Shown here: piece after piece, positions 1,080 through 48,759 of the stretch
How positions within the stretch are numbered: position 1 is the stretch's first letter
How the letters are laid out: every line of letters starts with the position of its first letter
Assembly: GCA_951406725.2 (NCBI GenBank)
Contig: OX597814.1
Coordinates: 67,766,001-67,830,000, forward strand
Length of the DNA stretch: 64,000 nucleotides
Direction: 5' to 3'
From: Octopus vulgaris
Taxonomy: Eukaryota
Notes under the pieces: model-generated
What the model was told of the DNA's origin: nothing
What the model saw: only the letters and a program-made list of their open reading frames with translations
Database searches by the model: none
Position numbers and translations under genes: made by a program

Positions 1080-1699
1080 AATAGTGCTTTGAAGTTATGA
1101 ATTTTGCAAGTGAACAATACATATAAATAATCAGTATGACCTTGGGTATGATAGCTAAAATAAATGGAAGAACTAAGTCTCTTGTTAACCACAGCCACCT
1201 TGAACTGGTCTCAGTTGCTATGGCTATCTGGTGTTTTTCTTCTGTTGTTTGGGTTTCAAACCAATCTTCTGCATAAAATAGTGCACCAATCTTGTTAGGA
1301 AACCATGGCGGGTGAATTCAATAATGAACAAAGTGGTATGAAATCCTTTGACAAGAGCCTTGCTGATCAAGTCTTGATATCCAGCTTTCCTCAATTAGTG
1401 AGAGATGTGAAATCTGTTGTCACAAAACACTATGACTTTAGCCAAGATGGATCGTTTTTGTGCTCCTAAATAAATGAAACTTGTGAGGGTATAGGAAAGT
1501 TATATCTAAGAGCATTGTCCATCATAGGTAAAGCCATATAAGAACAAGACACATGAAAAAGATAAAGTTGTGTTTATTCAGCCATGTGGAAAAATGTTCA
1601 AAGGCTGTTAATGATGGTGGTAGTAGTTGTCATCTGTTAAAATAAGCTGTTGAAATTATATTTTGATTCAAACTGTTTTTGTTTTTTTTATCTTTTCAG

Positions 1700-2335
1700 G
1701 AAGAATTCAAGCATTATCAAGATTCTATGAAGAAAGAGCTAGAAGATGTTGTCAAGAAGCAGCATCAACTAGAATCATCAAATGCTATATTACAAGATAA
1801 AGCATGTGATGTGAAAAATAGTCTGCTGAATTTGGACCTCAGTGAACAAGAATACTATGAACTACGAAGCCAGAAGGAGGAAGACTGGTCTTTACGAGAA
1901 TATGTTAGCATTAAACTTTATGAAAAACTTTTTCCTCTACAAAATGAAGTGAAAACATTGAAGTCAGAAACTATCAGTTCTGAAAGAGAGATAAAAACTT
2001 TAACAAACAAATTATCTGATTTACAAAAAAGGTTAGATGGGGAACGCATTGCCCATGGAGAACTAAGGATAAAATATCAGAAAATTAGTCTACAGCTCTC
2101 TGAGAATCAAACCAAAATTAAAACTGATTTGTATAAAATAAACAATTTTGATCATATCAAGAGTGACCGAGATAACCTGCAGCATGACCAAACTGAACTA
2201 CAGCGCCATAACCTGGTGTTGGAGGCATCACTTGCTAATGTCCAAAAAGAACGTGATGATTTAAACAGACAGCTAGGTTGCTGCAAACAAGAGATTTCTT
2301 TACTTCAGCAAGACAAAACTTATCTGTCTCGCCAG
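1700..2335 (+). CDS. PIBF1: PIBF1/CEP90 (progesterone-induced blocking factor 1, centriolar coiled-coil protein), internal coding exon
   Basis: ORF 1679-2359 matches PIBF1 from memory (SLREYVSIKLYE ~ SIPEYVSVRFYE; LLQQDKTYLSRQ ~ LLQKDKEYLNRQ). Acceptor ttttcAG ends at 1699 and donor CAG|GTTAGT starts at 2336. 636 bp, phase 0/0. Upstream exons lie outside the window. Confidence 0.93.
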
Positions 2336-3236
2336 GTTAGTTTATTTTATATCATTTAAATTTAATTTCAGTTTTGTTTTATATCTATTAACCCTTCTCC
2401 ACTTTCAAAATAGTTAAGTGTTTGATAAAATTGGATATTTTGTTAAACAGGTTGGTATCATTATTCAATGTCAGCATGGTTACATTGATTTTAACAAATT
2501 TTCACATTTATATATTGTTTGAGTAGTTGTCAAATCACTCGAGTGTAAATTCTATTTTTTAGCCAGACAGTGCGAGATCAACAAAGTTATGTCCCTTACG
2601 AAAGAATTCAACACAATGACTATTTGTAGGACTTTGAATCATATTTTAGTATCCGCCATCCAAATGAAATTAGTGTGACGTTCTCTCATTTTTAAATTAC
2701 TTATCTTAAAATTCATTCATGTTTATATCCCACTTCAACTAGTCTTTTGATCCACACTGAATGTCCCCTATATAACAAAGTATCCATTACGAACAGCCAT
2801 GATAGTTCTTAAAAGTTTGATTTTGTACAAGATACTGTAGCTGAATGTTTAGTGATCCAATTTTAATCAGCATTAACAAATCCTGGTAAAAATTCTTCTC
2901 TGAGTGGAGAAAGAAAAGGCAATACCTACTTTTAATATTAGATTCCTTAGTTACTTCATATGATATGTATATTGTAGTTTGATACTCATAAAGTATTGTT
3001 AAATTGCAGCTCAAGCACTCAATTATAAATGCATTGCATCTCATAGTAGAAACAGCTGTAAGTTAATGAAGTTCGTAGCATTATATGTATATAATATATT
3101 CCTTTGTCATCCCATTTCTTATTATCGCTCAGTACCTGACTAATGCTTTGTTCTGAAGCATACATATATATTGAGTTCTAACACCGAGTTATTAGTATTG
3201 TTATGCCTCAGCAATATAGATATGTATATATATCAT

Positions 3237-5812: not shown

Positions 5813-7109
5813 ATTTAACACACTCACCAGTAAAATTTCCACTCATTTACTTATTTATTTTTCTAAAATTTTCATTGCATCTTGCAACCTTTTCAATAGT
5901 TGTTGACTCTGTCTATTATTGAAGCTATGTTCTTTTTGTTTGTGCACATGTGTGTGGGTCAGTGTGTGTGTGCATGCATATGTATGTATGTAGGTATGAG
6001 GATATGATATCTACTACGTATATTTCCTATTTAGTACTGGGGATGTTTCATTTATGAGGACGTACTCCTGTATTTGTCTGAGAGTTGGGTCTTTTGTGTG
6101 CTTGGATAAAATGCAGATGTCAAGTTGACCCAGGTTGCATCTGTATTGGTCCTTGGCATGTTGGTAGAGTATGGAGGACTGTTTTTTGTCATATTGTCTC
6201 AAATATTCATTTAGTCGTTCTGCAATGTTCCTAGATGTCTCCCCTATGTATGTCATGTTCATGTCTTTACAAGCACCTTCTATGCATTTTATGCTGTCAA
6301 CTACATTTCTAGTTCTACAGTTAATGCCAGAGCTAATCCTACATACCATGCAGCTATCATTGGTGCATATATTCTACTCTACAGGTAGAGTAGAATAGTT
6401 AGTGGGCTGTTATGTAGATAGATGTGTTTATGTGTGAGTGTGGATGTGTGTATATGTGTATATGTATATGCACAGGTATGTAGGCATATGGATATGAATG
6501 TAAACGGATATACATACAGACAGATATGTACATAGGTTATATGAACAGACAAGCACACACACACACACACACACACAAATGAAGACTGAAACACATGGTC
6601 ATATATATGCACACACCTCACTTCATACAAGTTCACATATGGAAACACAGGTCTACACATATGGAGATATACATTCATACGGACAGACACAGTACATAGT
6701 CACAAAAACACATACACACACACACACACTCAGACATGCATACACACTCAGACATGCATACACAAGGAGACAGAGGTACGCACACACACACATGCAAACA
6801 CATACACACACATAAACACATGAATATGCAGGGAGAATACCTATGAACATACACACATACATATATACATGCACACACACACACACACATACAAACATGC
6901 ATACACATGCATACATACGTACATACATACATACATTCATGTGTATGCGCACACACACTGACCCACACACATGCACACAAACAAACAAAAAGAATGCAGC
7001 TTCAATAACAGACAGTCAACAACTATTGAAAAGATTGCAAGACACAACAAAAATTTTAGAAAAATAAATAAATAAATGAGTGGAAACTTTACTGGTGAGT
7101 GTGTTAAAT
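5813..7109 (-). mobile_element. Penelope-like element remnant: GIY-YIG endonuclease fragment between ~170 bp inverted terminal repeats carrying minimal HHRs
   Basis: ORF 6014-6349 (-) reads NCRTRNVV..IKC...YIGETSRNIAERLNE...QH...DPTLRQIQE..I...PVLN, a PLE-type GIY-YIG. 5813-~5980 is the reverse complement of ~6940-7109. Confidence 0.8.
5863..5899 (-). ncRNA. Minimal hammerhead ribozyme motif, U3-A8 variant
   Basis: Minus strand: cua UUGAAAA g guugca-aga-ugcaau GAAA au UU uag. A degenerate mirror copy lies at ~7023-7059 (+). Confidence 0.6.
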
Positions 7110-7294
7110 AATAAGGCACTAAAAGAGAATGACTCTCCACAGATACAACAGAATATGCTTCAACATGATCTCAAAGAATCTTGCAAACCAAATCCCAAAA
7201 TGAAATATATATATATATAAACTTACTTGAAAATAGATGCATGGCATTCAATTTATTAATAATATATATACATATATACATATTTATATATAAC

Positions 7295-7650
7295 AGCTCA
7301 GCTACTGGCGAGAAGACGGGAGAGATATGCAGTAATATACATCTGGAAGATCCTGGAAGGAATTGTGCCAAAATTTGGCATTGAAAGCTACACCAATGCC
7401 AGAACGGGACGACACTGCATAGTGCCAAAGATCCCAGCAATGCCATCATGCTTCAGGACCAGTTACTGCAACAGCCTGGGTTTCAAAGGACCACAGCTTT
7501 TTAATATTCTTCCAAAGAATCTGAGGAACTTGCACAAAGTAGATGTAGGGGTTTTTAAATAAAAGCTGGACCTCTTCCTGTCGAGAGTCCCAGATGAGCT
7601 TACCTCACAGCAAGAGGTGCAAATGAGGGTAGCTATATCAAACTCCATTC
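7295..7650 (+). mobile_element. CR1/L2-group LINE 3' fragment
   Basis: RRRERYAVIYIWKILEGIVP...NSLGFKGPQLFNILPKNLRN...FK*KLDLFLSRVPDE, a typical CR1-group ORF2 C-terminus. Confidence 0.7.
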
Positions 7651-7729
7651 TTCATCAAGTGCCACATATTAGAGGAGGCTCTTAGTAATAACAGTGTAGT
7701 GCAAAATGGCGGTGTATCAGCTGAAACTC

Positions 7730-7788
<59 letters not shown>

Positions 7789-7800
7789 TCACACACAGAG

Positions 7801-8088
7801 TTGCAGCGGGGGAGATGTTTGTAAGCCATTCAAGAACACACAAAAACCATTAGTTTCACTTCAACATGTAAATTTCATTTGTGTCAAAATATTTTCATTG
7901 CTTTAAAACCGTGACCTGTTCACTGACAAAACTTCATGCTGATCTCTGTCTGTGAAGTTTTGTCAGAGAACAGGTCACAGTTTCAAAGTCAGGAAAATAT
8001 TTTCACACAAATGAAATTTAAATGTTGAAGTGAAACTAATGGTTTTTGTGTATTCTTGAATGGCTTACAAACATCTCCCCTGCTGCAA
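7801..8088. repeat. ~290 bp near-perfect foldback element with an HHR-like motif in each arm
   Basis: Arms 7801-7936 and 7953-8088 are reverse complements around a 16 bp loop. Confidence 0.9.
7882..7928 (-). ncRNA. Minimal hammerhead motif, G3-C8 variant (stem II decayed)
   Basis: Minus strand: uguca GUGAACA g gucac-gguuuuaaa-gcaau GAAA auau UU ugaca. Perfect 5 bp stem I and palindromic AAAAUAUUUU. Confidence 0.5.
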
Positions 8089-8570
8089 TTGTTTTTGTTT
8101 CAGCATACGATCTCAGATCAAGTCATAAATTAAGAAATGGAGTTAAATGCATGTGTTATTCAAATCTTTATACTTCCAACATAGGTTTCAAAGGAAACAT
8201 TGGTATTATTCCTGAGGTAATAAAACAATGTAAAACAATGTAATCATCTCGTCAGGAAAAAAAAAAAAAAAATAAAACACATCAATAAGCCATTTTATCC
8301 AAATGTGATTTCTGCATATATGATGAAGGGAACACTGGCAAGTTATTTTAAAAAAAAAAACCTTTAATAGATTTAACATCAAAGCAATTTAGAGAAAGAG
8401 AAGGAGGAGAAAAAGAGAAATTGACAGAAAATTAAGATTGGAGAAATATAGTGCGATAGACGAATGGAAATAAAGCTCAAAGGCATGTAAATAGATATAT
8501 GTAGTGGAATGAATTGAAATGTAAGAGGACAGTCAAAAGTCAAATTTTATAGATTGGTAGAAGCTACTTA

Positions 8571-8825
8571 TATTGGGTTGGTACATAATTATTGTGGCTT
8601 TTTTTCAACAAATTTTATTCAACAGAAACAATAACAACATGCAGTAAAAACATCTTTAAATGATTATTCCAGAGCATATTCACCACCTACTTCAATTACT
8701 GCTTTCCATTTGCTTGACAGATGGTCAGACCATCATTTAAAGATATTTTTGTTAAATATTGTTATTGTTTTTGTTGAATAAAATTTGTTAAAAAAAAGCC
8801 GCAATAATTATGCACCAGCTCAATA
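8571..8825. mobile_element. Mariner-type MITE
   Basis: TA-flanked TTGGGTTGGTACATAATTATTG.../...CAATAATTATGCACCAGCTCAA with ~100 bp imperfect inverted arms. Confidence 0.75.
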
Positions 8826-10068
8826 GGAACCAAAAGTATGTTTTTGCCAATGTTTGCAACAATAAACACATTCTTTAAAAGTGTTTACAAGAGAATTGTT
8901 TGAGAACAATGAGATACTGTTCTTCAGTACAGAGTGGACAAAAGGATTTACCTTTATCTATGATAAAGGTAAATCCTTTTATTGAACCTGGTCACAGTTC
9001 CTTTATTTTCGTTCAGCATCTAGCAGTCGTGTTAGAGGTGCCCTGTGTCAAAAAATATTCATAGCAGATGTTCTCTTGACATTGTTCATATATGCTTGAC
9101 TCGGGCTCAGAAGTTACAGCCCGAGTTGTTATCTATAATCGTAAAAATTAGAAGTAATTCAAATTTAATGTTTTCTTGAAACAATAAATTTCCATAGAGA
9201 TTAGGATTTAAATTCCAATCTATGAAAAGTTTCCATTCTACAATATTCTTAAAGGAACGCAAAATTATCCAGCAACTCTGGCTAATACGAAGGAACCTGG
9301 TAGGTATAAAAGGCTAACTGGCATCTCTTATCAAGAGTACAAGCAACAGTCAGATCATTGATGTTTGTCATGCACTCCACTTTCGTTATTTGATTGGTGT
9401 TGTTCTGTGTGTAAAGATCAGTTGAGTTTTGCAGGGCTGCTATATTTTTCCCTTAACTTAGAAATGGAGAAAGACATAGTGCTAGATATAAAAAATAAGC
9501 CATTTGGGGCTAGAAATATTACAACAAAATCTGTCTTATGCAAAATCTGTGATGAGCTCGAGTGATAAAATTTGTGATAAGCCTGAGTGACGCTGATCAC
9601 CTGGAGTCGCCTCTAATATAATCTTAATAATACTAAAATGCTAGGGATGTAACCAAAATATCTCAGAAATAGTATATTTTATCTTAATATTTTTTTGCAT
9701 ATTTATTTTCATACTTACCTTCAGCAGTGCAGTAAAAATTTTTGTGACATTTCGACCTTTATTTATTAATGAAAATGAGTAAACAGAAATTTTGTAAACA
9801 CACATACAGAATACACACACACATAATGAATGTCATGGCGGGGCAATCAACACAAACACATGTCTGCTATCTGTGACATATACACATACAGTTTTCGCAC
9901 TCTCTAAGGAAAAAAGTTGACTTTTTGATATGCACAATATTTTAATCGTTTACAAATGTTTTTAACTGAATGTGATTTCAAAAATGTAAGCTGTTTGTAG
10001 AGTAAGTATTTATATCTTAGCTTTCTTTAAACAGACAATATTTTAGTTTGTTTTTTTTTATTTTCAAG

Positions 10069-10450
10069 TTGTTAATTTCTGTAAAATTTATTTATTTATT
10101 TGCTTTTGTTTAAAACTGAAAGAGAGGACAAAGTGAAAGATGTATGTAGGGATATATAAAATGGACTTGTGTGTGAAAGTGAGAGAGAAAAAGAGAGAAA
10201 GAGAGAGAGTGAAGGGGGTGTGTTGTTATGTATATGTACATACATCAATACATTTGCATACATCTTTTTATGTACGTGTGCACATGTATGTGTGAGAGAG
10301 AGTGAGTGAACATGTGCATTCTCATGTATGTGCAAGTGGCGCTCTCTCTCTTTCTCACACACACATACACATTCATAAATTTTTCACTTTCTCCTCTCTT
10401 TCACTTTAAAACAAAAGTGAATAAATAAAGTTTATTATGGAAATTAACAA
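10069..10450. repeat. Imperfect inverted repeat (~70 bp arms) around microsatellite-rich interior
   Basis: TTGTTAATTTC...CTTTTGTTTAAAACTGAAAGAGAGGA.AAAGTGAAA at 10069-10140 mirrors 10380-10450. Confidence 0.55.
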
Positions 10451-10888
10451 ACAGAGCCAGCTGATATGGATGATGGTTCCGTGAGTCAAAGCAAAAGATT
10501 GCCCCAAGGCAAAAATTTTTTCATTCTCAGCTCCAAAGATTTGGCTGCTATTCCTAGCTCACCCTGCTACCATGTAACTGCTATTTCTGATAAATGGCCC
10601 AAAATGGCCAAATCTTTCCTTTTCTAGGGAAAGGAGCCGTTTATGCCTGATTTTGATGTCAGATTCATTGAAAACATACTAAATAACCTGGAAAAGAAAA
10701 AGACCCATGAAACAAAACTCCGTTGCCAAGAAAGTCATACTTTCCTAGTGATCCAATGGATCAAGGGTAGTCTAGTTTATATGTATGTATGTATATATGT
10801 GTGTATGCATGTATGTATGTATATATGTGTGTATGTATATATGTATGTATATATGTATGTATGTATATATATATATATGTATGTATGT

Positions 10889-13800
10889 CAGGTCACTTTC
10901 GAGTGCTGCTGGTAACATGTAACCCAGTACAACCTGTTGCATGGTCGGGCCATCGGCGACTAAACCGGCAACCCCACCAAGCTTGCTTGGTGAGGAGGGT
11001 GTTTATTGGACACCCTGCTGGAGGAAAAACAAAACCCGTCAAAGGGCAGAGGAACTCTTGAGAGTCAACGGCCATCCAATAATTGTGTAATTATATATTT
11101 ACTGTATATCTGCCTTTTTCTCACTAATTTTTATATATTGTATATTTTTATAACTTCATTATATTCATTATATAAATTCTTATATACTTCACATCATATA
11201 TTTTATGTATATTTTGTATATCAATGTTTTTTTTTATATATATATTGTATGTTTTATTTTTTATTTTTTTATTTATTTATTTTTTTCATTATATCAATCT
11301 TATCCAGCTTAAGGCTGTACCATGCGCGGGGACATAGAAATAATTGGACTGAATACCCGATCGCGCGGTTAAACCATTGGGAGTGAAGGACTCCTAGCCT
11401 TTGTTAGGGCATCCTTCTAGGAGAAGGCAACTCAGGTAACTGGGATAACTCCGACATAAAACCTGTGGTTACCGATGATGTTGACTTGTTCTTCTTTTCG
11501 GATTATGGCTGCTGTTGCTTAGTGGGTGGGATTGACTCATTGCACAGCCTTTCCTCACTTGAAAAAAAATCTTCTTGCACAGGCATTGCACGATAACAAC
11601 GTTAATTGATTGATTAAATTGATCAACTAATTCATGATTGTTGATAGTGCTGTGAGTCTCAACTGAATGGCTTAAAAAGCAAATAATTAATGATATAAAA
11701 ATAAATAGCAGTAAGGACTCTGGAACCACATCAGATGAAAGAGTCTGGCACGGCAGGGGCCCCAGAGCATCACAGTTTGAACTCGGCCATCATCATGCTA
11801 CTGTGATAGAACCAAATAAAATATTGAATATTGGCTGTTGGAATGTATGGACACTGCTTGACTGCAAGTCCTCTGAATGTCCTGAACGAAGGACTGCACT
11901 TGTTGCGAAGGAGCTTCAACGCTATGATCTTGACATCGTTGCTTTTATCTGAGACGAGATTACCTGGAGATGGTCATCTTACAGAATCTTGTGGAAAATA
12001 TACATTCTTTTGGAAAGGGAGGAATGAAGAGTTTAGAGGAGAAGCTGGAGTAGCGTTTGCTGTTAAGACTACTCTTGTAGACAAGTTGGAAGAATTCCCT
12101 GTCGGAATTAACAAGCGTCTTATGTCCATGAGAATTCCTTTGGTTAAAGGAAATTATGTGACCTTGGTGAGTGTGTATGCTCCAATTGTGTGCTATACTG
12201 ATGAAGAAAAAATTTCTTTCTACCATGCTTTGGAGGGCAATATAAGAAATATCCCTCGGGCAGACAGTCATCGTACTGGGTGACTTTAATGCTAGAGTGG
12301 GTAGGGATTTTAACACATGGACTGTAATTGGAAAGCATGGGGTGGGAAAGTGTAATAGTAATGGCATCCTTTGTTGCAGATGTGTGAGGAGCTGCGTCTG
12401 TGTGTTACCATTACCATGTTTCAACAAAAGAATAAGTTTAAGACCACATGGATGCACCCTGCATCTAAAGAATGGCATATTCTGGATTACATCCTTGTTA
12501 GAGTGCATGACAGACAGGATGTGCAGTGTGTTCGTGTTCTTCGTGGAGCTGAGTGTTGGACTGACCACCGCCTAGTACATACAAAAGTGAAATTAGTTAC
12601 AAAACATAAAATCCAGGCTGCAGGGATTACCCTGCCTAAAAGACTGAATGTTGATTGTCTTAGGTGTAATAGTGTGAAGAGAACTTTATGAGAGGAAATG
12701 AATGCTGTAGGTATTGGGAAGGATTGGCCGACCCTTAAAAAGTCAGTTTATGATATAGGCAAGAAAGTTCTGGGATTGATACAAAGAAAGCATCAAGATT
12801 GATTTAAAGAAAATGATGAACATATAGATGATTTATTAGCTGATAAAAGATGTACTTTGTCACGCTATCTGTCAGCAAAGCCACAGGAAAGGGAAGTGTT
12901 GCATAGGGAACTCAAGGATGTAAAATCACGTGTGAGGCAAAGGCTTTCTCAGATGAGAGATACATGGTGGAGTAAAAGAGCTGATGAGATACAGGTGGCG
13001 TCGGATTCCAATAACACAAAGCTGTTGTATTGTCTTTTGCGAGAAGTTTATGGACCAACGTCTTCTCTGATGGCACCACTTCGAAGCAGGGATGGTAAAG
13101 AACTTCTTTGTGATTCACAAGGAATTCTGTGAAGGTGGCAAGAACACTTTGATGAAATTTTGAATCAGCAGTCTATAGTTAGTGAGGATGTTCTCAATCT
13201 CACCCATGGATTGCCTGTGACGGCAGCACTCGCAGAACCACCAAAGTTGGAAGAAGTTGCAGTAGCTGTCTCAAGGATGAATAATGGAAAATATCCGGGT
13301 ATGGATGGAATACATGTGGAGTTGTTGCAGCATGGGGGTGAGAAACTTCTGCAGCAACTTCACTCTTTGTTTGGTAAGATATGGACTAGTGAATCTGTAC
13401 CTGAGGGCTGGAGAGATACAGTAATGGTCTTGTATAAGGGAAAGGGCAACAGGAATGATTGTAGTAACTATTGGGGAATATCATTGCTTTCTGTCATAGG
13501 AAAGGTTTTATGCAGAGTACTTCTGGATCACCTGCTGAAACACGTTGCAGATTGTGTTCTTCCAGAAAGTCAATCTGGCTTTCTTGTGGGACGTGGCACT
13601 GCTGATATGATCTTTTCAGCTAGACAGCTTCAGAAGTGTGTGGAACAGGGTCTGGATTTGTATCAGGTTTTTGTCGATCTGACAAAAGCCTTTGATACTG
13701 TTAATAGAAAAGCATTGTGGAAAGTCCTCCAGAAATTTGGGTGTCCTGAAAAGTTCCTTGCTTTGGTTAGGTCTTTTCATGAAGACATGAAGGGTAGGGT

Positions 13801-15264
13801 TAATATTAGGGGGAATATGTCGGAGCCCATTTAAATACAAAATGGAGTAAAACAGAGGGATATTCTAGCACTGACCCTATTTGCCATATATTTTGCAATA
13901 GTTTTCTGTATTGCATTCAGAAACTGCAGATATTGTGTTTACATCCATTATCAAACCTCTGGCAGCATATTTAATATCAGGCACTTTGCTACAAAAACAA
14001 AGGTATTTACCTCTATCATAAGAGACTTTTGTATGCAGATGATTGTGATCTGGTAGCGCACACGGAGATTGATATGCAACACATTTTGAATGCATTCTCT
14101 GATGCTTGCTCTGCCTTAGGATTGACAGTCAGTCTCAAGAAAAATGTTGTCATGTATCAACCTGCCCCTGGTAAGCAGTATAGTGTACCAAATATCTATG
14201 TGTATGGTAAACAACTTGATGTAGTTGATCAGTTTGTCTACCTGGGAGGCACTGTTAATAGATATAGCAATTTGGATGATGAAATTCCATACAGAATTAG
14301 AAAAACAAGTGATGCTTTCGGAAGGCTAGAAAGGTGCCTTTGGAGTATGCAGAAAGACAAAGATAAAGGTGTACAAGGCATGTGTGCTCCCTTCTCTTCT
14401 CTATGCCTGTGAGACGTGGGTCACATATCAATACCACCTTAAACAACTGGAACGTTTCCATCAGATGTGCCTCAGATGGATCCATAGCATTAAGTGGAAG
14501 GACCGCATCAGTGATCTTGAAATATTGGAAGGCTCTCGGTGTGAAAGTATAGAAGCTCTTGTGTTAAAGCAAAGGCTCAGATGAAGTGGTCATCTGGTCA
14601 GTATGAAGGATTCAAGGATGCCAAAACAACTCTTTTATGAAGAGTTAGCTAAAGGAGAACGACCTCCACATAAACCAAAAAAGAGGTATAAGGACTTGCT
14701 GAAGGCTTCCTTAAGAGATGCTTGCATCTCTCCTGACACATGGGAAGGCATAGCTATTGATCGTAGCAGGTAGAGAAGGATTGTACACGAGGGGACAGTC
14801 ACTTTGAGAAATCTCGAGTTGCACATGAGAAAGTAAGGAGGAATGTCAGGAAGGGCATCGCTGTTACACTTCCAGATGGGAAGGGTCTTCCTATGATGCT
14901 GACATGCAGTGTCTGTGCAAGACCCTGCCTCAGTAAAGCTGGACTCAAGAGTCATCTTCATAATCATAAAGCGAGACAGATGAGTGACAACCTGGCCACT
15001 GGTGGTGGTGTTACACACCTTAATTGTCATATCTGTCAGGCATGTCGAAGAGAGTGTAATTCGGCAGGAGGACTTAAACAACATGCAAAGTACATGAAGC
15101 CAGTTACAACTACAGCCGGCTATTGCTGGTAAAGGTTTTAGGTGCCAATTCTGTACAAGACATTGTAGATCTTTAGCTGGGCTAAAAAGTCACATTTAAT
15201 CACAGCACTAATAACAGTTAAGCTTCGTGCAATGGCCATACTCGATAACGAAGAGGCAGCCATC
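10889..15264 (+). mobile_element. Near full-length, inactivated RTE-clade LINE (APE endonuclease, RT, C-terminal C2H2 fingers)
   Basis: [55 protein letters not shown] (~14032), CSVCARPCLSKAGLKSHLHNH. 3' end GAAGAGGCAGCCATC. Possible low-complexity 16 bp TSD ATATATGTATGTATGT at 10873-10888 and 15265-15280. Multiple frameshifts and stops. Confidence 0.9.
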
Positions 15265-15297
15265 ATATATGTATGTATGTGTATATATATATATATG

Positions 15298-15482
<185 letters not shown>

Positions 15483-15519
15483 GTATATATATAAAAAAAA
15501 AAAAAAAAAAAATATATAT

Positions 15520-16295
15520 CCACCACCCTGCCCTGTCCCTAGCCATATTCAGATGGCTTTAGTCCCTTATGTTATCGAGCAGTTACTGTCTATATCCCTT
15601 TTAGAGAATTATTATTGCTTTCGAACAGATTTTCGAAATCAGCAAATGTATTTTGCTTGAAAATCTATATAAGAAAATCCTGCATAGTGAGAATTCGTCG
15701 AGGAAGCGGAGGCCTACCACACGCCGATGATAGGCAATACACCTTGAAACCATGGTCCGTGTGTGGTTTCCGCTTCATCGGGGAATTACCTCCCTTTGCA
15801 GGTTTAGGGCACCGTGACGGTGTCGAGCCTTTCTGGTGACGTCGATGTTCGCCTGGGGCTAAATGCAACAGTAACACCCCCACCACCCTGCCCTGTCCCT
15901 AGCCATATTCAGATGGCTTTAGTCCCTTATGTTATCGAGCAGTTACTGTCTATATCCCTTTTAGAGAATTATTATTGCTTTCGAACAGATTTTCGAAATC
16001 AGCAAATGTATTTTGCTTGAAAATCTATATAAGAAAATCCTGCATAGTGAGAATTCGTCGAGGAAGCGGAGGCCTACCACACGCCGATGATAGGCAATAC
16101 ACCTTGAAACCATGGTCCGTGTGTGGTTTCCGCTTCATCGGGGAATTACCTCCCTTTGCAGGTTTAGGGCACCGTGACGGTGTCGAGCCTTTCTGGTGAC
16201 GTCGATGTTCGCCTGGGGCTAAATGCAACAGTAACACCCCCACCACCCTGCCCTGTCCCTAGCCATATTCAGATGGCTTTAGTCCCTTATGTTAT
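15520..16295 (+). mobile_element. Candidate retrozyme: 2.16 identical copies of a 360 bp non-coding unit, each full unit with a type I hammerhead
   Basis: Units 15520-15879, 15880-16239 and a 56 bp partial, flanked by (TA)n. HHR cacacg CCGAUGA uagg-caauaca-ccuu GAAA c-caug-g UC cgugug at 15718-15763 and 16078-16123. Homologous to the element at 48385-48759. Confidence 0.8.
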
Positions 16296-16302
16296 ATGTA
16301 TG

Positions 16303-16365
<63 letters not shown>

Positions 16366-16376
16366 GTATATATATG

Positions 16377-16411
<35 letters not shown>

Positions 16412-16420
16412 GTATATATA

Positions 16421-16724
16421 TAACGGGAAGCTTTATGAAAATAGACAAAAGACGAAGGCAGGTGGAAAACAAACAAACAATTGTATTAGTATGGCGCTCA
16501 GGAAATATAAATAAAACAAGTCTTTAACGTTTCGAGCCTACGCTCTTCAACAGAAAGATACACAGAGAGAAAAAAACACAGAAAGAAGGAGAGAAAAAAA
16601 ATGCGTGCAGTAACTAACGAATCAACATGGCGATCTGATTTCGGCCAGAAGTCAAAGATCAAACATGAGACGCGAGAGCGAAATAAGGGGAGATAATAAG
16701 GTTGATAACAGGGTTGAATGACCA
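16421..16724 (-). mobile_element. 3' end (pLTR) of a Neptune-like Penelope element
   Basis: Reverse complement of ~44890-45208, flanked by (TA)n. Carries the HHR-like motif at 16521-16558. Confidence 0.85.
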
Positions 16725-16821
16725 CCTATTATATATGTATATATATATATATGTATATATATATGTATGTATATATATATGTATATATATATATATATGT
16801 ATATATATATGTATGTATATA

Positions 16822-30130: not shown

Positions 30131-30661
30131 AACATTTTTATTAAGGATTTTCCATGTTTTGTGTGTTTCTTGCAATTCATTTGAAACAATAATCTATTTC
30201 TCAACTATTTCAGTCTCATCTCATCTTCAGTTTGTAATGTGCTGTTGGTATGTGTAACTGTAATTTCTGTAGGTTTTATAACCAGAACCTGTTTAGACCT
30301 TATCAGAAATTTAATTGTAAGAAATTTGATTGTTGGTATTTAGTATGTAATATATGTGTATTTTTTCTGAGTATATTTTAGTTTTGCTCTGCATTGTAAC
30401 TCTTCCATCATTAATCATTTAATTTTGTGTGAAATTCTACTTAGTATTGATGTATTGTCCTCTAGTACTCTCTGAGTAGACAGTAGTTATGGTTCCTAAA
30501 TTAAGCTTTGTCTAAAGTTTTCATATCTTAAGAATGATATACAATTGTTTATATCTGCCAGTAACTAGCAGCAAAACTATACAATTGTTTACTTAAGCCT
30601 GTAGATATGTGTTATTATTATTACTATTGTTACAGGATTGTTTATTTCTATTATTTTTAAG

Positions 30662-31834
30662 GCGAGTGAGCTGACTAATCGATGTACTTTGATAGGAGAG
30701 AAAGTTCAAGAGACCAACCTACAGTTAGAAGATGCTAAAAAATCTCGGGAGGAGTTGTATGAGAAATATATTTCTTCCCGCGACCATTACAAATCTGACT
30801 ATGAAACTCGTCTCAAGGAAGAATTAGCAAAAATTCAATCGAAGACAAATATGGAAATTGAAAAACTTCGAACATCAACTAAAGAAATGTATGATCGAGA
30901 AAATCGAAACTTACGTGAAGCCCGTGACTTTGCAGTGATGGAGAAAGACAAATTTGAACTAAAATGTCAAGAAATTCAAGATAAATATGACCAGCTTATG
31001 AATGAATTCCGAGCCTTACAGACTTCTGGTGATGGGAGATTGTTAGATTTACAAAGTGAGGTTAAACTAAAAAGTTTTGAAGCAGAACGAGGTAATTTGG
31101 TCTTTGAAGAAACTTGCAAAAATTTGAAACAGTGTCAGTTAGACCTGGAAAAAATGGAAGCAAAGTATGATGTCTTATTGAAAGAGTACTATGCAATGGA
31201 AAACATGAAAGAAAAGACTATTACTGAGCTGAATTCAGAACTAGTGTCTAAGAATATTCGTTTAGATTCTTATGAGAAGCTTGAAAAAGAGTTGGATGAA
31301 GTTGTTTTGCAAGCTGCTGAGTTAACTGATCAAGAAAATGCTGAGAAGGTTCTCTTTGCTTATGGCTATGGTGCCAATGTACCAACAAATGCAAAGCGTC
31401 GACTAAAACAGAGTATAGATTTGGCACGAAGAGTTCTAAATCTTGAACGGCTCAATACATCACTTCAACATGATCTTGAAGCTGAGAAGAAATGTGTTCA
31501 ACAAATAACTGAAGAGTTAAAATCTTCTAAAGACCTAATTCATGTTTCACAGCAGCCACAAAGCTACCTTGTTGAAACTCTTAAAAATCGAGACAATATG
31601 TTAAAAACACAAAAAGGAGAGCTTGATAATGCATTGAAACAGAATGAGATCCTGAAAACTGAACAAAACCGACTTTTAACCACACAAAATCAACTGTCAC
31701 AAGATTTAGATCGTTTGCTCCATCACCAGGCTGAAATTTCTCTTATGAAGCAGGTTCTGATGAAGATATCTTCTGGTAAATCTAGTGGAATTGATACTTT
31801 GATAGAAAGTGGTATTTCATTCACTCAGGCATGA
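30662..31834 (+). CDS. PIBF1: PIBF1/CEP90, large (probably terminal) coding exon
   Basis: Contains SRDHYKSDYE, EMYDRENRNLREARD, YEKLEKELDE and LFAYGYGANVPTNAKRRLKQS, all PIBF1 hallmarks. Acceptor ttttaAG at 30661 joins LSRQ|ASELTNRC, colinear with vertebrate LNRQNMELSVRC. Stop TGA at 31832-31834. A possible donor near 31775 (G|GTAAAT) cannot be excluded. Confidence 0.92.
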   Translation, partial: ASELTNRCTLIGEKVQETNLQLEDAKKSREELYEKYISSRDHYKSDYETRLKEELAKIQSKTNMEIEKLRTSTKEMYDRENRNLREARDFAVMEKDKFELKCQEIQDKYDQLMNEFRALQTSGDGRLLDLQSEVKLKSFEAERGNLVFEETCKNLKQCQLDLEKMEAKYDVLLKEYYAMENMKEKTITELNSELVSKNIRLDSYEKLEKELDEVVLQAAELTDQENAEKVLFAYGYGANVPTNAKRRLKQSIDLARRVLNLERLNTSLQHDLEAEKKCVQQITEELKSSKDLIHVSQQPQSYLVETLKNRDNMLKTQKGELDNALKQNEILKTEQNRLLTTQNQLSQDLDRLLHHQAEISLMKQVLMKISSGKSSGIDTLIESGISFTQA

Positions 31835-43380: not shown

Positions 43381-43768
43381 CTTGTTAAAGGGTCACCAGA
43401 TTTTATAGGCAGTTCGCTCCTTGTACGTCTTACGAAGAAATGCATGCGCACGCACACGCACACACTCATGTACACGCTGATATCTCTTGTAGCCAGTTGG
43501 ATTCAAAAGTTCATGGATTGGTGGTTTAAATGCTATTGATGGTGTGCAGGTATTGTTGGTGTTGTGGTGGAAATATTGCTCTTGCAAATGGTATTTATGT
43601 GGCTGTTTTGTCTGAAGTAAATCCTCATAGATGCACTAGGTCAACATATTTGTTTTTATATTTGAAATGGACTTGCTTCTCTACTTCATACTATCGTACT
43701 ATTGGTGTTGGTGGTTGTCTTCGTGTTGATGATTGTAACACACACACACACGTACATAATACAACATT

Positions 43769-43822
<54 letters not shown>

Positions 43823-43826
<4 letters not shown>

Positions 43827-45208
43827 ACCCCACGACCCTACCTCTCCAACGCACCATTCTTCGAGCTTTCCGTCATCTCCAGTCCGACCCGTCCACTTCA
43901 CACCTCTTCCCTAACCGACCCCTCCCCTCTTTCAAACGAGCCCATAACCTTCGAGACCTTTTGGTCCATAGCTCCTTCCCTGACCCTACCTCCCAACCTG
44001 GCTCGTTCCCCTGCTCCCGCCCACGTTGCCGTACTTGCCCTTACCTTTCCAACACCACCCTCCTCACTGGCACCCATCATCTACCCTATCGCATCATCAA
44101 CTCCTTCACCTGCACCTCCAGCAATATTATCTATTGCGTCTCTTGCTCTCTCTGCCATTCCCTGTACATCGGACAAACGGGACGCCGCTTGGCTGACCGG
44201 TTCGCGGAACACCTTCGTGACATCTGCCTTGCGAACGACACACCGGTCTCACGCCATTTCCGCTCCACCGGTCACTCCTTGCAACATCTATCTGTGTTCG
44301 GTTTGTCCTTACACAGAGGCCATCCGGATTCCCGTTTGCGCCGTGAACAGGAATTAATCTTCTCTCTTCGCCATTTGGTCTCAACTCCCCCCCCTCCTCA
44401 TCTAACCCCCATCTCCCCCTCCTCATCTAACCTCCCCCCGACCCCTACTTCTCTTCAGTCCTTCATCCTTTCACCCCTACTCCTCTTCCCTTCTTCCCTC
44501 TTTCTCCCTCCCTCCTTCTTCCCTCTTCCCCTTCCCTCTTTCTCTCTGCTCCCTCACTCCCCTTCTCTCTCCCCCCTCTCCCTCTATCCTCCCCCTCCTC
44601 CCCATCCCCCCCTCCTCTTCTCCCCCCTCCTCTTCTCCTCTCCTTCCTTCTCCCCCTTCCCCTTCCCCCTCCTCTTCTCCCCTTTCCTTCTCCCCTCTTC
44701 TCCCCTTTCTTTCTCTCCCCTCTCCCCCTCACCCTCTTCCCTCATCTCCTCTCTCTACCCTACACCATACGACTTTACACATCACATATATACATACACA
44801 CGTCCAGACCTCTCATACGCACTAATACTCTCTCATACATACACACACACTCTTCTCATACACACACACACACTCTTATGTTGGAGCGAGGTCATTTAAC
44901 CCTATTATCTCCCCTAATTTCGCTCTTGCGTCTCATGTTTGACCTTTGACTTCTGGCCGAAATCAGATCGCCATGTTGATTCGCTAGCTTCTGCACACAT
45001 ATTTTTTTTCTCTCCTTCTTTCTGTGTTTTTCTCTGTGTGTCTTTCTGTTGAAGAGCGTAGGCTCGAAACGTTAAAGACTTGTTTTATTTATATTTCCTG
45101 AGCGCCATACTAATACAATTGTTTGTTTGTATTCCACCTGCCTTCGTCTTTTGTTTATTTCCGTAAACCTGCCTTCGTCTTTTGTCTATTTTGATAAAGC
45201 TTCCCGTT
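43823..45208 (+). mobile_element. 5'-truncated Neptune-like Penelope element (Cys-rich linker, GIY-YIG, 3' pLTR) in (TA)n
   Basis: YHP..F.RAHNLRDLLVHS..PCSRPRCRTCPY..NIIYCVSCSLC..YIGQTGRRLADRFAEHL..HF..H..RLRREQELIF. The terminal GLN is frameshifted. Polypyrimidine tract, then HHR-like motif at 45040-45079. Confidence 0.9.
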
Positions 45209-48384: not shown

Positions 48385-48388
<4 letters not shown>

Positions 48389-48759
48389 TGACGTATATTT
48401 GCCATCTCAATATTGCTACCCCTAAGGGTGGATGCTACTGTAGTTTTTAGCCCCAGGAGGACACACTCCTCCAGCTGGCCATAGACACACTTTCTGTGTC
48501 CTGTCAGTATTTGCAAAGGGAAGTCATCCTTCCCGTCTTCAACTTATGATACACACGGACTCGAGTTTCGAGGTATTGACCTCTCGTCAGCGTGTGACAA
48601 TCATAGTTGTCGGCGAGAATTAGATTTCCTTCACAAATACTTATACTTTTTCCAGCGTCCACTGTCGCTGATATTGAAAAAGTGAAATCAAACAATGATA
48701 AATATCAAAGTGAGTTATATACAGTAGCGGTAACACATCGTGACGTATATTTGCCATCT
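48385..48759 (-). mobile_element. Candidate retrozyme: 352 bp monomer plus 23 bp terminal redundancy, in (TA)n
   Basis: Direct repeat ATCGTGACGTATATTTGCCATCT at 48385-48407 and 48737-48759. Canonical HHR inside. Confidence 0.85.
48552..48596 (-). ncRNA. Canonical type I hammerhead ribozyme
   Basis: cacacg CUGACGA gaggu-caau-accuc GAAA c-ucga-g UC cgugug. Stem I is extended by caacu..augau/aucau..aguug. Predicted cut between 48558 and 48557. Confidence 0.9.

What the first reader, a model, noticed from the sequence alone, without database searches (positions are those of the whole stretch)
15520..16295. 360 bp tandem with a hammerhead in every full unit: candidate circular-RNA retrozyme
Seen: 2.16 apparently identical units in (TA)n with no credible ORF. 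Each full unit folds as a type I HHR with a long interrupted stem I (aauuc..cga.gaagcgga..accac.acg / cgu..guggu.uccgcuuc.ucg..gaauu) and palindromic ACCAUGGU. Predicted cuts after 15757 and 16117 would release an exact 360 nt monomer. The element ends do not coincide with the cut site, as expected for rolling reverse transcription of a circle. Knowledge: small HHR tandem retrozymes producing circRNAs are known from some other animals. Inference: a young, possibly uncharacterised cephalopod family mobilised in trans by PLEs.
Basis: partly seen in the sequence, partly recalled or inferred. Interest (0 to 1): 0.9.

Follow-up and report, generated by a model that had tools for sequence, protein, structure and literature searches.

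The report
Ribozyme repeat with Penelope insertion footprints
This 360-base repeat, which carries a predicted self-cutting RNA motif, is one of many hundreds of copies scattered through the genome, and their fixed ends and uniform repeats suggest that a small RNA circle is likely copied round and round and pasted into AT-repeat DNA by enzymes likely borrowed from Penelope-type jumping genes.

Summary
Observation confirmed: 2.16 identical 360-bp units in (TA)n, each full unit with a type I hammerhead layout and predicted cuts after 15757 and 16117. The core is a variant (U4C, U·U at the base of stem II); the helices covary across relatives. It is a dispersed family: 798 exact core matches, 1,305 exact end junctions, plus two related families. 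New here: copies are not freely permuted. Outer ends sit at two fixed sites 44 nt apart (unit positions 178 and 222), next to (AT)n. All 61 two-armed insertions examined are inverted with one end of each type, the 'tail' signature of Penelope-like elements (PLEs); an intact PLE family in this genome shows the same pattern. Arms reach 14.7 units, are uniform within an insertion and differ between insertions (21 haplotypes in 29 loci), which points to a single-unit, probably circular, template. Not shown: cleavage, a circular RNA, expression, the partner PLE, the organism. Verdict: a non-LTR retrozyme whose genomic footprints support PLE-driven rolling reverse transcription, which the papers read only propose. 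The scan's notes hold nothing on this genome and one unrelated rotifer hammerhead pair.

The parts
15520..16295 (+). Single-armed family-1 insertion, 2.16 units of 360 bp; 5' end at unit position 123 (variable end), 3' end at fixed site A (position 178)
15758..16117 (+). Cut-to-cut monomer (360 nt), the predicted circular RNA; position 1 = 15758
   Evidence: cleavage and circularisation not tested
15692..15788 (+). Hammerhead 1 with extended stem I: UAC loop 15715-15717, stem I 15718-15723/15758-15763, core CCGAUGA 15724-15730 (U4C), stem II 15731-15745 (U·U at base), GAAA 15746-15749, palindromic stem III 15749-15756, predicted cut after 15757
16052..16148 (+). Hammerhead 2, identical; core at 16084, predicted cut after 16117
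15936..15979 (+). 44-nt 'tail' between fixed end site A (after 15935, position 178) and site B (after 15979, position 222); inferred pair of reverse-transcription start sites
   Evidence: analogy to PMC11167929
15868..15949 (+). Conserved structured segment around site A: helix 15868-15875/15942-15949 (one compensatory pair in family 2) and hairpin 15901-15918; candidate binding site for the PLE protein (inferred)
15265..15519 (.). Left (TA)n target tract with a 20-A run; follows the 3' end of a degraded LINE
16293..16422 (.). Right (TA)n target tract
16422..16731 (-). Separate insertion in the same tract: 3' terminal fragment of a PLE-type family ('W1'), 98% identical to the end of a long-ORF copy; carries a minimal hammerhead-like motif at 16521-16558
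48385..48757 (-). Family-2 copy (353-bp unit, 1.06 units) with canonical core CUGACGA at 48590, G-C closed stem II; ends at its site A next to (AT)n

Best explanation
The array is one insertion of a dispersed, non-coding 360-bp retroelement family whose RNA is predicted to cut itself at a hammerhead, likely closes into a monomer circle, and is likely copied into (TA)n DNA by a Penelope-like element's endonuclease and reverse transcriptase. Shown by the sequence: family size, fixed ends, (TA)n flanks, inverted A/B pairing, uniform multi-unit arms, conserved fold. Inferred steps: (1) a tandem copy is transcribed, possibly by read-through; (2) hammerheads cut once per unit, probably slowly and helped by pairing of two palindromic stems III or by protein; (3) a host ligase closes the circle; (4) a PLE protein, probably a dimer, binds the structured segment near positions 110-222, nicks both strands of (TA)n and primes one cDNA at 178 and the other at 222; (5) each polymerase runs round the template for a fraction of a turn up to about 15 turns; (6) the two cDNA 5'-ward ends are joined, giving an inverted two-armed insertion, or one arm is joined to the target, as in the window.
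For: Family: 798 exact 40-nt core matches, control 0; 537 site-A and 768 site-B junctions with (AT)n. Fixed ends: in the 20 loci chosen by the core alone, 30 of 34 segments end exactly at 178 or 222, the rest at 151-176. Pairing: 61 of 61 two-armed insertions among 80 loci are outward-facing with one A and one B end; from coordinates alone 43 of 44 close pairs; family 2: 16 of 17. PLE likeness: 30-40 nt tail on one end, inverted 5'-truncated copies and microsatellite bias are PLE features (PMC8557442 passages); the tail equals two internal RT start sites, both strands are nicked and extended, and the protein is predicted dimeric (PMC11167929). An intact RT+GIY-YIG family here has two ends about 39 nt apart in (AT)n, one of each in the two inverted copies seen. 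Single-unit template: 66 of 140 arms exceed one unit, longest 5,304 nt; the two arms of a locus differ at 0.4% of sites against 5.3% between loci; 21 haplotypes among 29 loci with two or more full units; at sites covered 4+ times, 55 variants lie in one unit and 2 in more; 179 of 179 pattern-matched cut-site junctions have no added bases. Fold under selection: 7 of 19 pairs change on both sides, 94% of cells pair, slid controls 21-51%; G5, G8/A9 region, GAAA and UC at the cut vary little while N7 and loop III vary.
Against: No cleavage, circle or expression shown. The window's core carries U4C, which lowers activity in vitro though a viroid with it stays infectious (PMC3088659 passage), and older family-1 copies carry C3U; 8 of 9 predicted Xenopus retrozyme dimers did not cleave in vitro (bioRxiv 2026.07.22.740005); in the lizard PLE, cleavage was not needed and uncut RNA was the main template. 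The hammerhead fold is not the predicted minimum. No PLE with sequence similarity to the unit was found among 68 fetched PLE-hit stretches, and its 44-nt tail is longer than the 30-40 nt described. Strictly private variants fixed in all units are few: 10 in 8 of 70 loci, only 2 with three or more copies. Uniform arrays could also come from uniform linear sources. 60 of the 80 loci were picked by their end sequence, which favours fixed ends. Covariation counts sequences, not events, and rests largely on three lineages.
Confidence: 0.68

Rival explanations
1. Same PLE-driven insertion, but the template is an uncut linear multimer transcribed from an existing array; the family-1 hammerhead is weak or vestigial, and long arrays are regrown at the DNA level (slippage, unequal exchange).
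For: Variant core; hammerhead cleavage dispensable for the lizard PLE in vitro; the cut site is crossed 179 times and only 4 arms stop at positions 1-4; 16 of 61 arm pairs end within 25 nt of the same absolute position against 5.0 after shuffling, as expected of one shared template of any shape.
Against: Linear copying only shortens arrays, yet 21 nested haplotypes each occur as uniform multi-unit insertions, so a one-unit bottleneck followed by regrowth happened many times. Stepwise DNA regrowth should leave variants shared by blocks of units; 2 were seen against 55 single-unit variants. The helices and catalytic positions stay conserved across families about 40% apart.
Confidence: 0.17
2. 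The template is a cut linear monomer, and the polymerase jumps from its 5' end to a 3' end (same or another molecule), imitating a rolling circle.
For: Some arms begin at positions 1-2, right at the predicted cut: 6 of the 11 genome-wide matches of a pattern built to catch them; 4 observed against 1.4 expected at positions 1-4, p = 0.05 uncorrected. A few loci switch haplotype or register inside an arm (L037, L163, L135, L136).
Against: No added bases at 179 of 179 matched junctions (the pattern would miss deletions, and one search lists none at the cut); up to 14 consecutive crossings without mixing haplotypes although over a thousand ends exist.
Confidence: 0.08
3. The units are only terminal repeats (pLTRs) left by truncated insertions of an autonomous PLE, later expanded as a local satellite; there is no independent non-autonomous element.
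For: Retrozymes are related to pLTRs in Xenopus, and local amplification is proposed there; half of the arms are shorter than one unit (median 332 nt).
Against: Arms that pass the unit boundary run into another unit, never into an ORF: tblastn of two PLE proteins over all non-PLE loci then held gave only unrelated flank hits in L040 and L153, and none in 30 family-3 loci. New haplotypes spread to new loci as whole units.
Confidence: 0.06
4. Assembly artefact or chance hammerhead match.
For: The two window units are identical and lie in a long (TA)n tract; Rfam gives no hit.
Against: Hundreds of loci with different unit numbers and junctions; covariation; two public runs hold a 390-nt contig covering the unit plus 30 nt. 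The exact unit count at this one locus was not checked with reads.
Confidence: 0.01

Closest known systems
Non-LTR retrozymes of animals (Cervera and de la Pena 2020, PMC7229834; mussel units of about 350-390 bp, axolotl Rtz353)
   Same: Non-coding tandem units of 150-450 bp, under 50% GC, one type I hammerhead per unit, short palindromic stem III, dimers to long multimers, coexistence with PLEs; a U·U at the base of helix II is described for axolotl HHR_Amex2.
   Different: There cleavage and circles were shown; here not. In the passages read there is no account of fixed ends, a tail, inverted two-armed insertions or (TA)n targets ('inverted' and 'microsatel' 0 hits in the main text; supplement unreadable). 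Family 1 has U4C or C3U cores.
Animal retrozymes as non-autonomous PLE derivatives (Li, Clavereau, Pollet, bioRxiv 10.64898/2026.07.22.740005)
   Same: Same conclusion on the partner class: PLEs.
   Different: Their evidence is co-occurrence and pLTR homology in vertebrates, no mollusc sampled, mechanism left open. Here the evidence is the insertion footprint, and pLTR homology was not found.
EN+ PLEs: Poseidon of Anolis (PMC11167929); Neptune/Naiad structure (PMC8557442)
   Same: Two internal start sites downstream of a hammerhead, tail on one end, inverted truncated copy, AT-rich or (TA)n target.
   Different: No ORF; 44-nt tail; arms of many short units; a full-size hammerhead (6-bp helix I, 4-bp helix II) rather than the minimal PLE type (PMC4209133).
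Non-autonomous Chlamys elements such as MRC1 (PMC8557442 passage)
   Same: Non-autonomous PLE dependants forming multicopy head-to-tail insertions.
   Different: That clade lacks canonical hammerheads and shares 3' sequence with autonomous partners; algal.

Membership tests
Non-LTR retrozyme | Short (150-450 bp), non-coding, tandemly repeated unit | tested here: met
   360 bp, 46.7% GC, longest stop-free stretch 98 codons, arms up to 14.7 units
Non-LTR retrozyme | Type I hammerhead architecture in every unit | tested here: met
   Three helices with covariation; present in both full window units
Non-LTR retrozyme | Canonical catalytic core (CUGANGA, G-C at base of stem II, GAAA, UH) | tested here: not met
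   Family 1 has CCGAYGA or UUGAYGA and mostly U·U; family 2 meets it. Hence filed as a variant
Non-LTR retrozyme | Dispersed multi-copy family | tested here: met
   798 core matches; 537 + 768 end junctions
Non-LTR retrozyme | Self-cleavage of the RNA | not testable with these tools
   Only indirect: a few arms start at the cut site, not clearly above chance
Non-LTR retrozyme | Expressed as monomer circular RNA | not testable with these tools
   No run on record as RNA and contigs only
PLE-mobilised element | Tail: two alternative 3' ends some tens of nt apart, one per end of inverted insertions | tested here: met
   61 of 61, 16 of 17 in family 2; 44 nt against 30-40 nt described
PLE-mobilised element | Variable 5' truncation, inverted copy, microsatellite or AT-rich target | tested here: met
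   (137 of 140 ends at (AT)n)
PLE-mobilised element | Sequence similarity to the pLTR of an autonomous partner | tested here: inconclusive
   None in 68 PLE-hit stretches from a few families; only 150 of 6,136-16,781 candidates were scored per search
Autonomous PLE | RT plus GIY-YIG ORF | tested here: not met
   No ORF in the unit or attached to arms

The most novel reading that the evidence does not exclude
These insertions are direct fossils of PLE twin-primed, rolling-circle reverse transcription on a ribozyme-made RNA circle: two subunits of a PLE enzyme nick both strands of (TA)n, start 44 nt apart on one 360-nt circle and each roll up to 15 turns, while the circle's hammerhead has drifted through weakened cores (CUGA, UUGA, CCGA) that favour an intact template. 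This would settle how animal retrozymes move and give a minimal natural template for PLE integration.
Probability: 0.4. Interest if true: 0.82.

Novelty: new variant of a known kind. Interest (0 to 1): 0.62.

Why it matters
How animal retrozymes return to the genome is open: PLEs are proposed as helpers from co-occurrence and pLTR similarity, and rolling reverse transcription of the circle is a model. This family supplies countable footprints for both (fixed start sites, strict A/B asymmetry, uniform multi-turn arms) and names the RNA segment and two positions to test in the existing in vitro PLE assay. It also bears on PLE mechanism itself: a strict one-A-one-B rule suggests an asymmetric dimer priming twice on one RNA. 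If family-1 RNA cleaves, U4C and C3U cores become natural working variants that standard searches miss.

Tried and rejected
Rfam: no hammerhead or other credible family; only low-complexity (TA)n hits. DNA search of the whole unit in the genome did not finish; patterns were used instead, so counts are exact-match lower bounds. Expression: no RNA holder listed; this says nothing for or against. Four runs laid were contigs whose RNA status is a guess; they cannot tell circle from tandem. Partner search: GIY-YIG family search and two window endonuclease fragments; profile and BLAST over 40 + 25 + 3 fetched stretches found only separate family-3 insertions in L121 and L127 and chance-level hits; loci of the family could not be cut out, only its window copy was checked. 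The L127 match first looked like a PLE terminal repeat; it is a neighbouring insertion 1.3 kb past the ORF, beyond that PLE's own end. L074, a 3.25-kb spacing, is a segmental repeat, not a long element. Run-off at the cut site as proof of cleavage: weak (6 of 11 pattern matches; 4 against 1.4 expected); by a hand estimate about 3 would be expected genome-wide by chance, so not used as support. My early list of 'private fixed' variants shrank on the full test; the report uses. Stops enriched at 179-222 after a crossing (20 against 10.8, p = 0.008 uncorrected over 11 bins) and at 21-60 (35 against 15.4) are unexplained and not decisive. Atlas search of a host exon gave only generic coiled-coil hits. 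PMC8490949 passages added nothing. Lunse 2017 was not held.

Full report
OBSERVATION. The array is as described. Two 360-bp units are identical and a 56-nt third start follows; the periodicity stops exactly at 15520 and 16295. It lies in (TA)n on both sides and encodes nothing credible. Each full unit has a type I hammerhead layout with predicted cuts after 15757 and 16117. Rfam misses it. Unit positions below count from the first base after the predicted cut (15758 = 1).

IS THE HAMMERHEAD REAL? A second, canonical hammerhead in the same window (48590, minus strand) belongs to a 353-bp sister family that aligns over the whole unit; a third, older group has 2,149 matches to an 18-mer and, read by eye, mostly CUGA cores. 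Over 18 chosen variants from the three groups, 94% of cells pair, 7 of 19 pairs change on both sides, and slid controls give 21-51%. These are related sequences, so the events are few. The layout (6-bp helix I, 4-bp helix II, short palindromic helix III) is the canonical animal type of PMC4209133 (part 1 of 4 read), which often needs a dimer. Family-1 cores among 163 matched copies: 145 CCGAYGA, 18 UUGAYGA, none CUGA. U4C lowers activity in vitro but is tolerated in a viroid (PMC3088659, passages). So the fold is under selection (shown by comparison); catalysis is inferred.

FAMILY AND ARCHITECTURE. The exact 40-nt core occurs 798 times in G000, the family-2 core 422 times. I mapped 80 family-1 loci: 20 chosen by the core (the first 100 listed matches), and 60 of 66 further C1 regions chosen by end patterns; one (L160) had only a short end match. 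In the core-chosen 20, 30 of 34 segments end at exactly 178 or 222. Genome-wide, 537 site-A and 768 site-B junctions with (AT)n match exactly. Keeping segments that end at 160-180 or 205-224 (internal segments dropped) gives 140 arms: 61 two-armed insertions, all inverted, 3' ends outward, one A and one B; 18 single-armed. From coordinates alone, 43 of 44 close pairs on C1 and part of C2 are outward A/B pairs, none A/A or B/B. Family 2, 25 loci plus the window copy: 16 of 17 two-armed loci are A/B (one mislabelled by a stray hit, L070; L063 irregular; L052 and L057 may be one insertion duplicated). 137 of 140 outer ends have (AT)4 within 30 nt. 5' ends vary; the inner junctions mostly abut or share 1-2 nt (35 of 63). 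The window copy is a single arm: fixed A end, random 5' end at 123.

WHY A PLE. Partial tandems, an inverted truncated copy, a 30-40 nt tail on one end and microsatellite bias are PLE hallmarks (PMC8557442, passages). In the lizard PLE the tail is the gap between two internal RT start sites downstream of the hammerhead, both DNA strands are nicked and extended, and a dimer is predicted (PMC11167929, parts 1-2 of 4). This genome has young PLEs: a family with a 781-codon RT+GIY-YIG frame open in many copies whose copies end at two sites about 39 nt apart in (AT)n, one of each in both inverted copies seen; a second family with the same inverted form and a hammerhead-like motif that also reads CCGA with a U·U pair (by eye); and an abundant third (W1), a fragment of which sits 126 nt right of the finding. 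None shares detectable sequence with the unit, so the partner is not identified. The helix and hairpin around site A are conserved between families 1 and 2 and are the likely protein-binding region (inference).

WHY A SINGLE-UNIT, PROBABLY CIRCULAR, TEMPLATE. 66 of 140 arms exceed one unit, 8 exceed five, the longest is 14.7. The cut site is crossed 179 times; 179 of 179 pattern-matched junctions have no added bases. The two arms of one insertion differ at 0.4% of sites, arms of different insertions at 5.3%, and 16 of 61 pairs stop within 25 nt of the same absolute position against 5.0 in shuffles: both cDNAs likely come from one RNA. The 29 loci with two or more full units show 21 haplotypes in nested series, each uniform across its units; at sites covered four or more times, 55 variants are confined to one unit and 2 are shared by more. 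New variants therefore pass through one unit and reappear as uniform multimers, which rolling copying explains directly. Against: strictly private fixed variants are few (10, in 8 of 70 loci), uniform linear sources with quick DNA-level regrowth cannot be excluded, some haplotype counts at two-fold cover may include single mutations, and a few loci show template switches. Two public runs hold a contig of exactly 390 nt covering the unit; with 31-letter words that is what a closed 360-nt cycle gives (my reasoning), but tandem DNA gives it too.

MECHANISM. Shown: family, ends, target, pairing rule, uniform arms, conserved fold. Inferred: transcription, self-cleavage (likely slow, dimer- or protein-assisted), ligation by a host RtcB-type ligase (proposed in PMC7229834, abstract and passages), twin priming by a PLE protein at 178 and 222, rolling synthesis, joining of the two cDNAs. 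Confidence 0.68 for the whole chain; PLE-type mobilisation alone about 0.9.

KNOWN OR NEW. It works like a non-LTR retrozyme (PMC7229834: passages and section 14 read, supplement unreadable). It meets the structural membership features except the canonical core; cleavage and circles are untested. PLE dependence is proposed there and argued from co-occurrence and pLTR homology in bioRxiv 10.64898/2026.07.22.740005 (parts 1-3 of 5 read, supplements not seen; 35 genomes, no mollusc). I found no description of fixed ends, tail or inverted A/B arms for retrozymes, and none of a cephalopod retrozyme, in searches (open-access library only; most seen as listings; Repbase entries and subscription papers were not searched and may hold this family). 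The scan's own notes had nothing on this genome and one rotifer hammerhead pair that did not bear on this. The organism is not established by any search.

VERDICT. A real, still-young but long-lived retrozyme family with a variant core; the value lies in the insertion footprints, which make the PLE rolling-circle model testable. Interest 0.62.

Noticed in passing
window 48385-48757 (-): Copy of the 353-bp sister family with a canonical hammerhead; 422 exact core matches in the genome, same two-end rule. The better candidate for a first cleavage test.
   Followed up: yes
window 16422-16731 (-) and 43760-44400 (+): Pieces of an abundant (TA)n-targeting PLE-type family (W1; 150 best matches 93-100% identical, 16,781 candidates) with a minimal hammerhead-like motif whose core reads as an A6U or C3U variant, about 100 nt from its 3' end. 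Only one end type was seen in the copies fetched.
   Followed up: partly
L115 568-4268 (G000:C6) and L112-L126: Young PLE family with two overlapping long frames: 479 codons without a Pfam match, then 781 codons RT+GIY-YIG. A separate upstream ORF is unusual for PLEs described as single-ORF.
   Followed up: partly
L127 1795-4980, L130: Second PLE family, inverted insertion in (TA)n with a tail of about 30 nt; hammerhead-like motif with CCGA core and U·U at stem II, like family 1.
   Followed up: partly
L192-L221: Older family-3 group (2,149 matches of an 18-mer), diverse, mostly CUGANGA cores, same end sites; L194 shows CCGA again; L195 has a 119-nt sub-unit repeated six times without the hammerhead.
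   Followed up: partly
window 11828-15264 (+): Degraded LINE (RT and C2H2 finger matches; RTE-like by recall) whose 3' end abuts the left (TA)n tract; the retrozyme and the PLE fragment are nested in that tract.
   Followed up: partly
window 1667-2359 and 30605-31834 (+): Two long coiled-coil reading frames that recall PIBF1/CEP90 (from memory, not confirmed; no Pfam hit, Atlas generic). If they are one gene, the array lies sense in an intron and could be transcribed by read-through.
   Followed up: partly
window 6014-6373 (-): Older GIY-YIG fragment of another PLE-type family (best relatives 72-86% identical).
   Followed up: partly
L052 and L057 (G000:C1, about 1.04 Mb apart): Mirror-image family-2 insertions with the same inner breakpoints: a segmental duplication or an assembly duplicate.
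   Followed up: no
family-1 positions 21-60: 5' ends are enriched here (35 against 15.4 expected), often with both arms stopping close together; unexplained.
   Followed up: no
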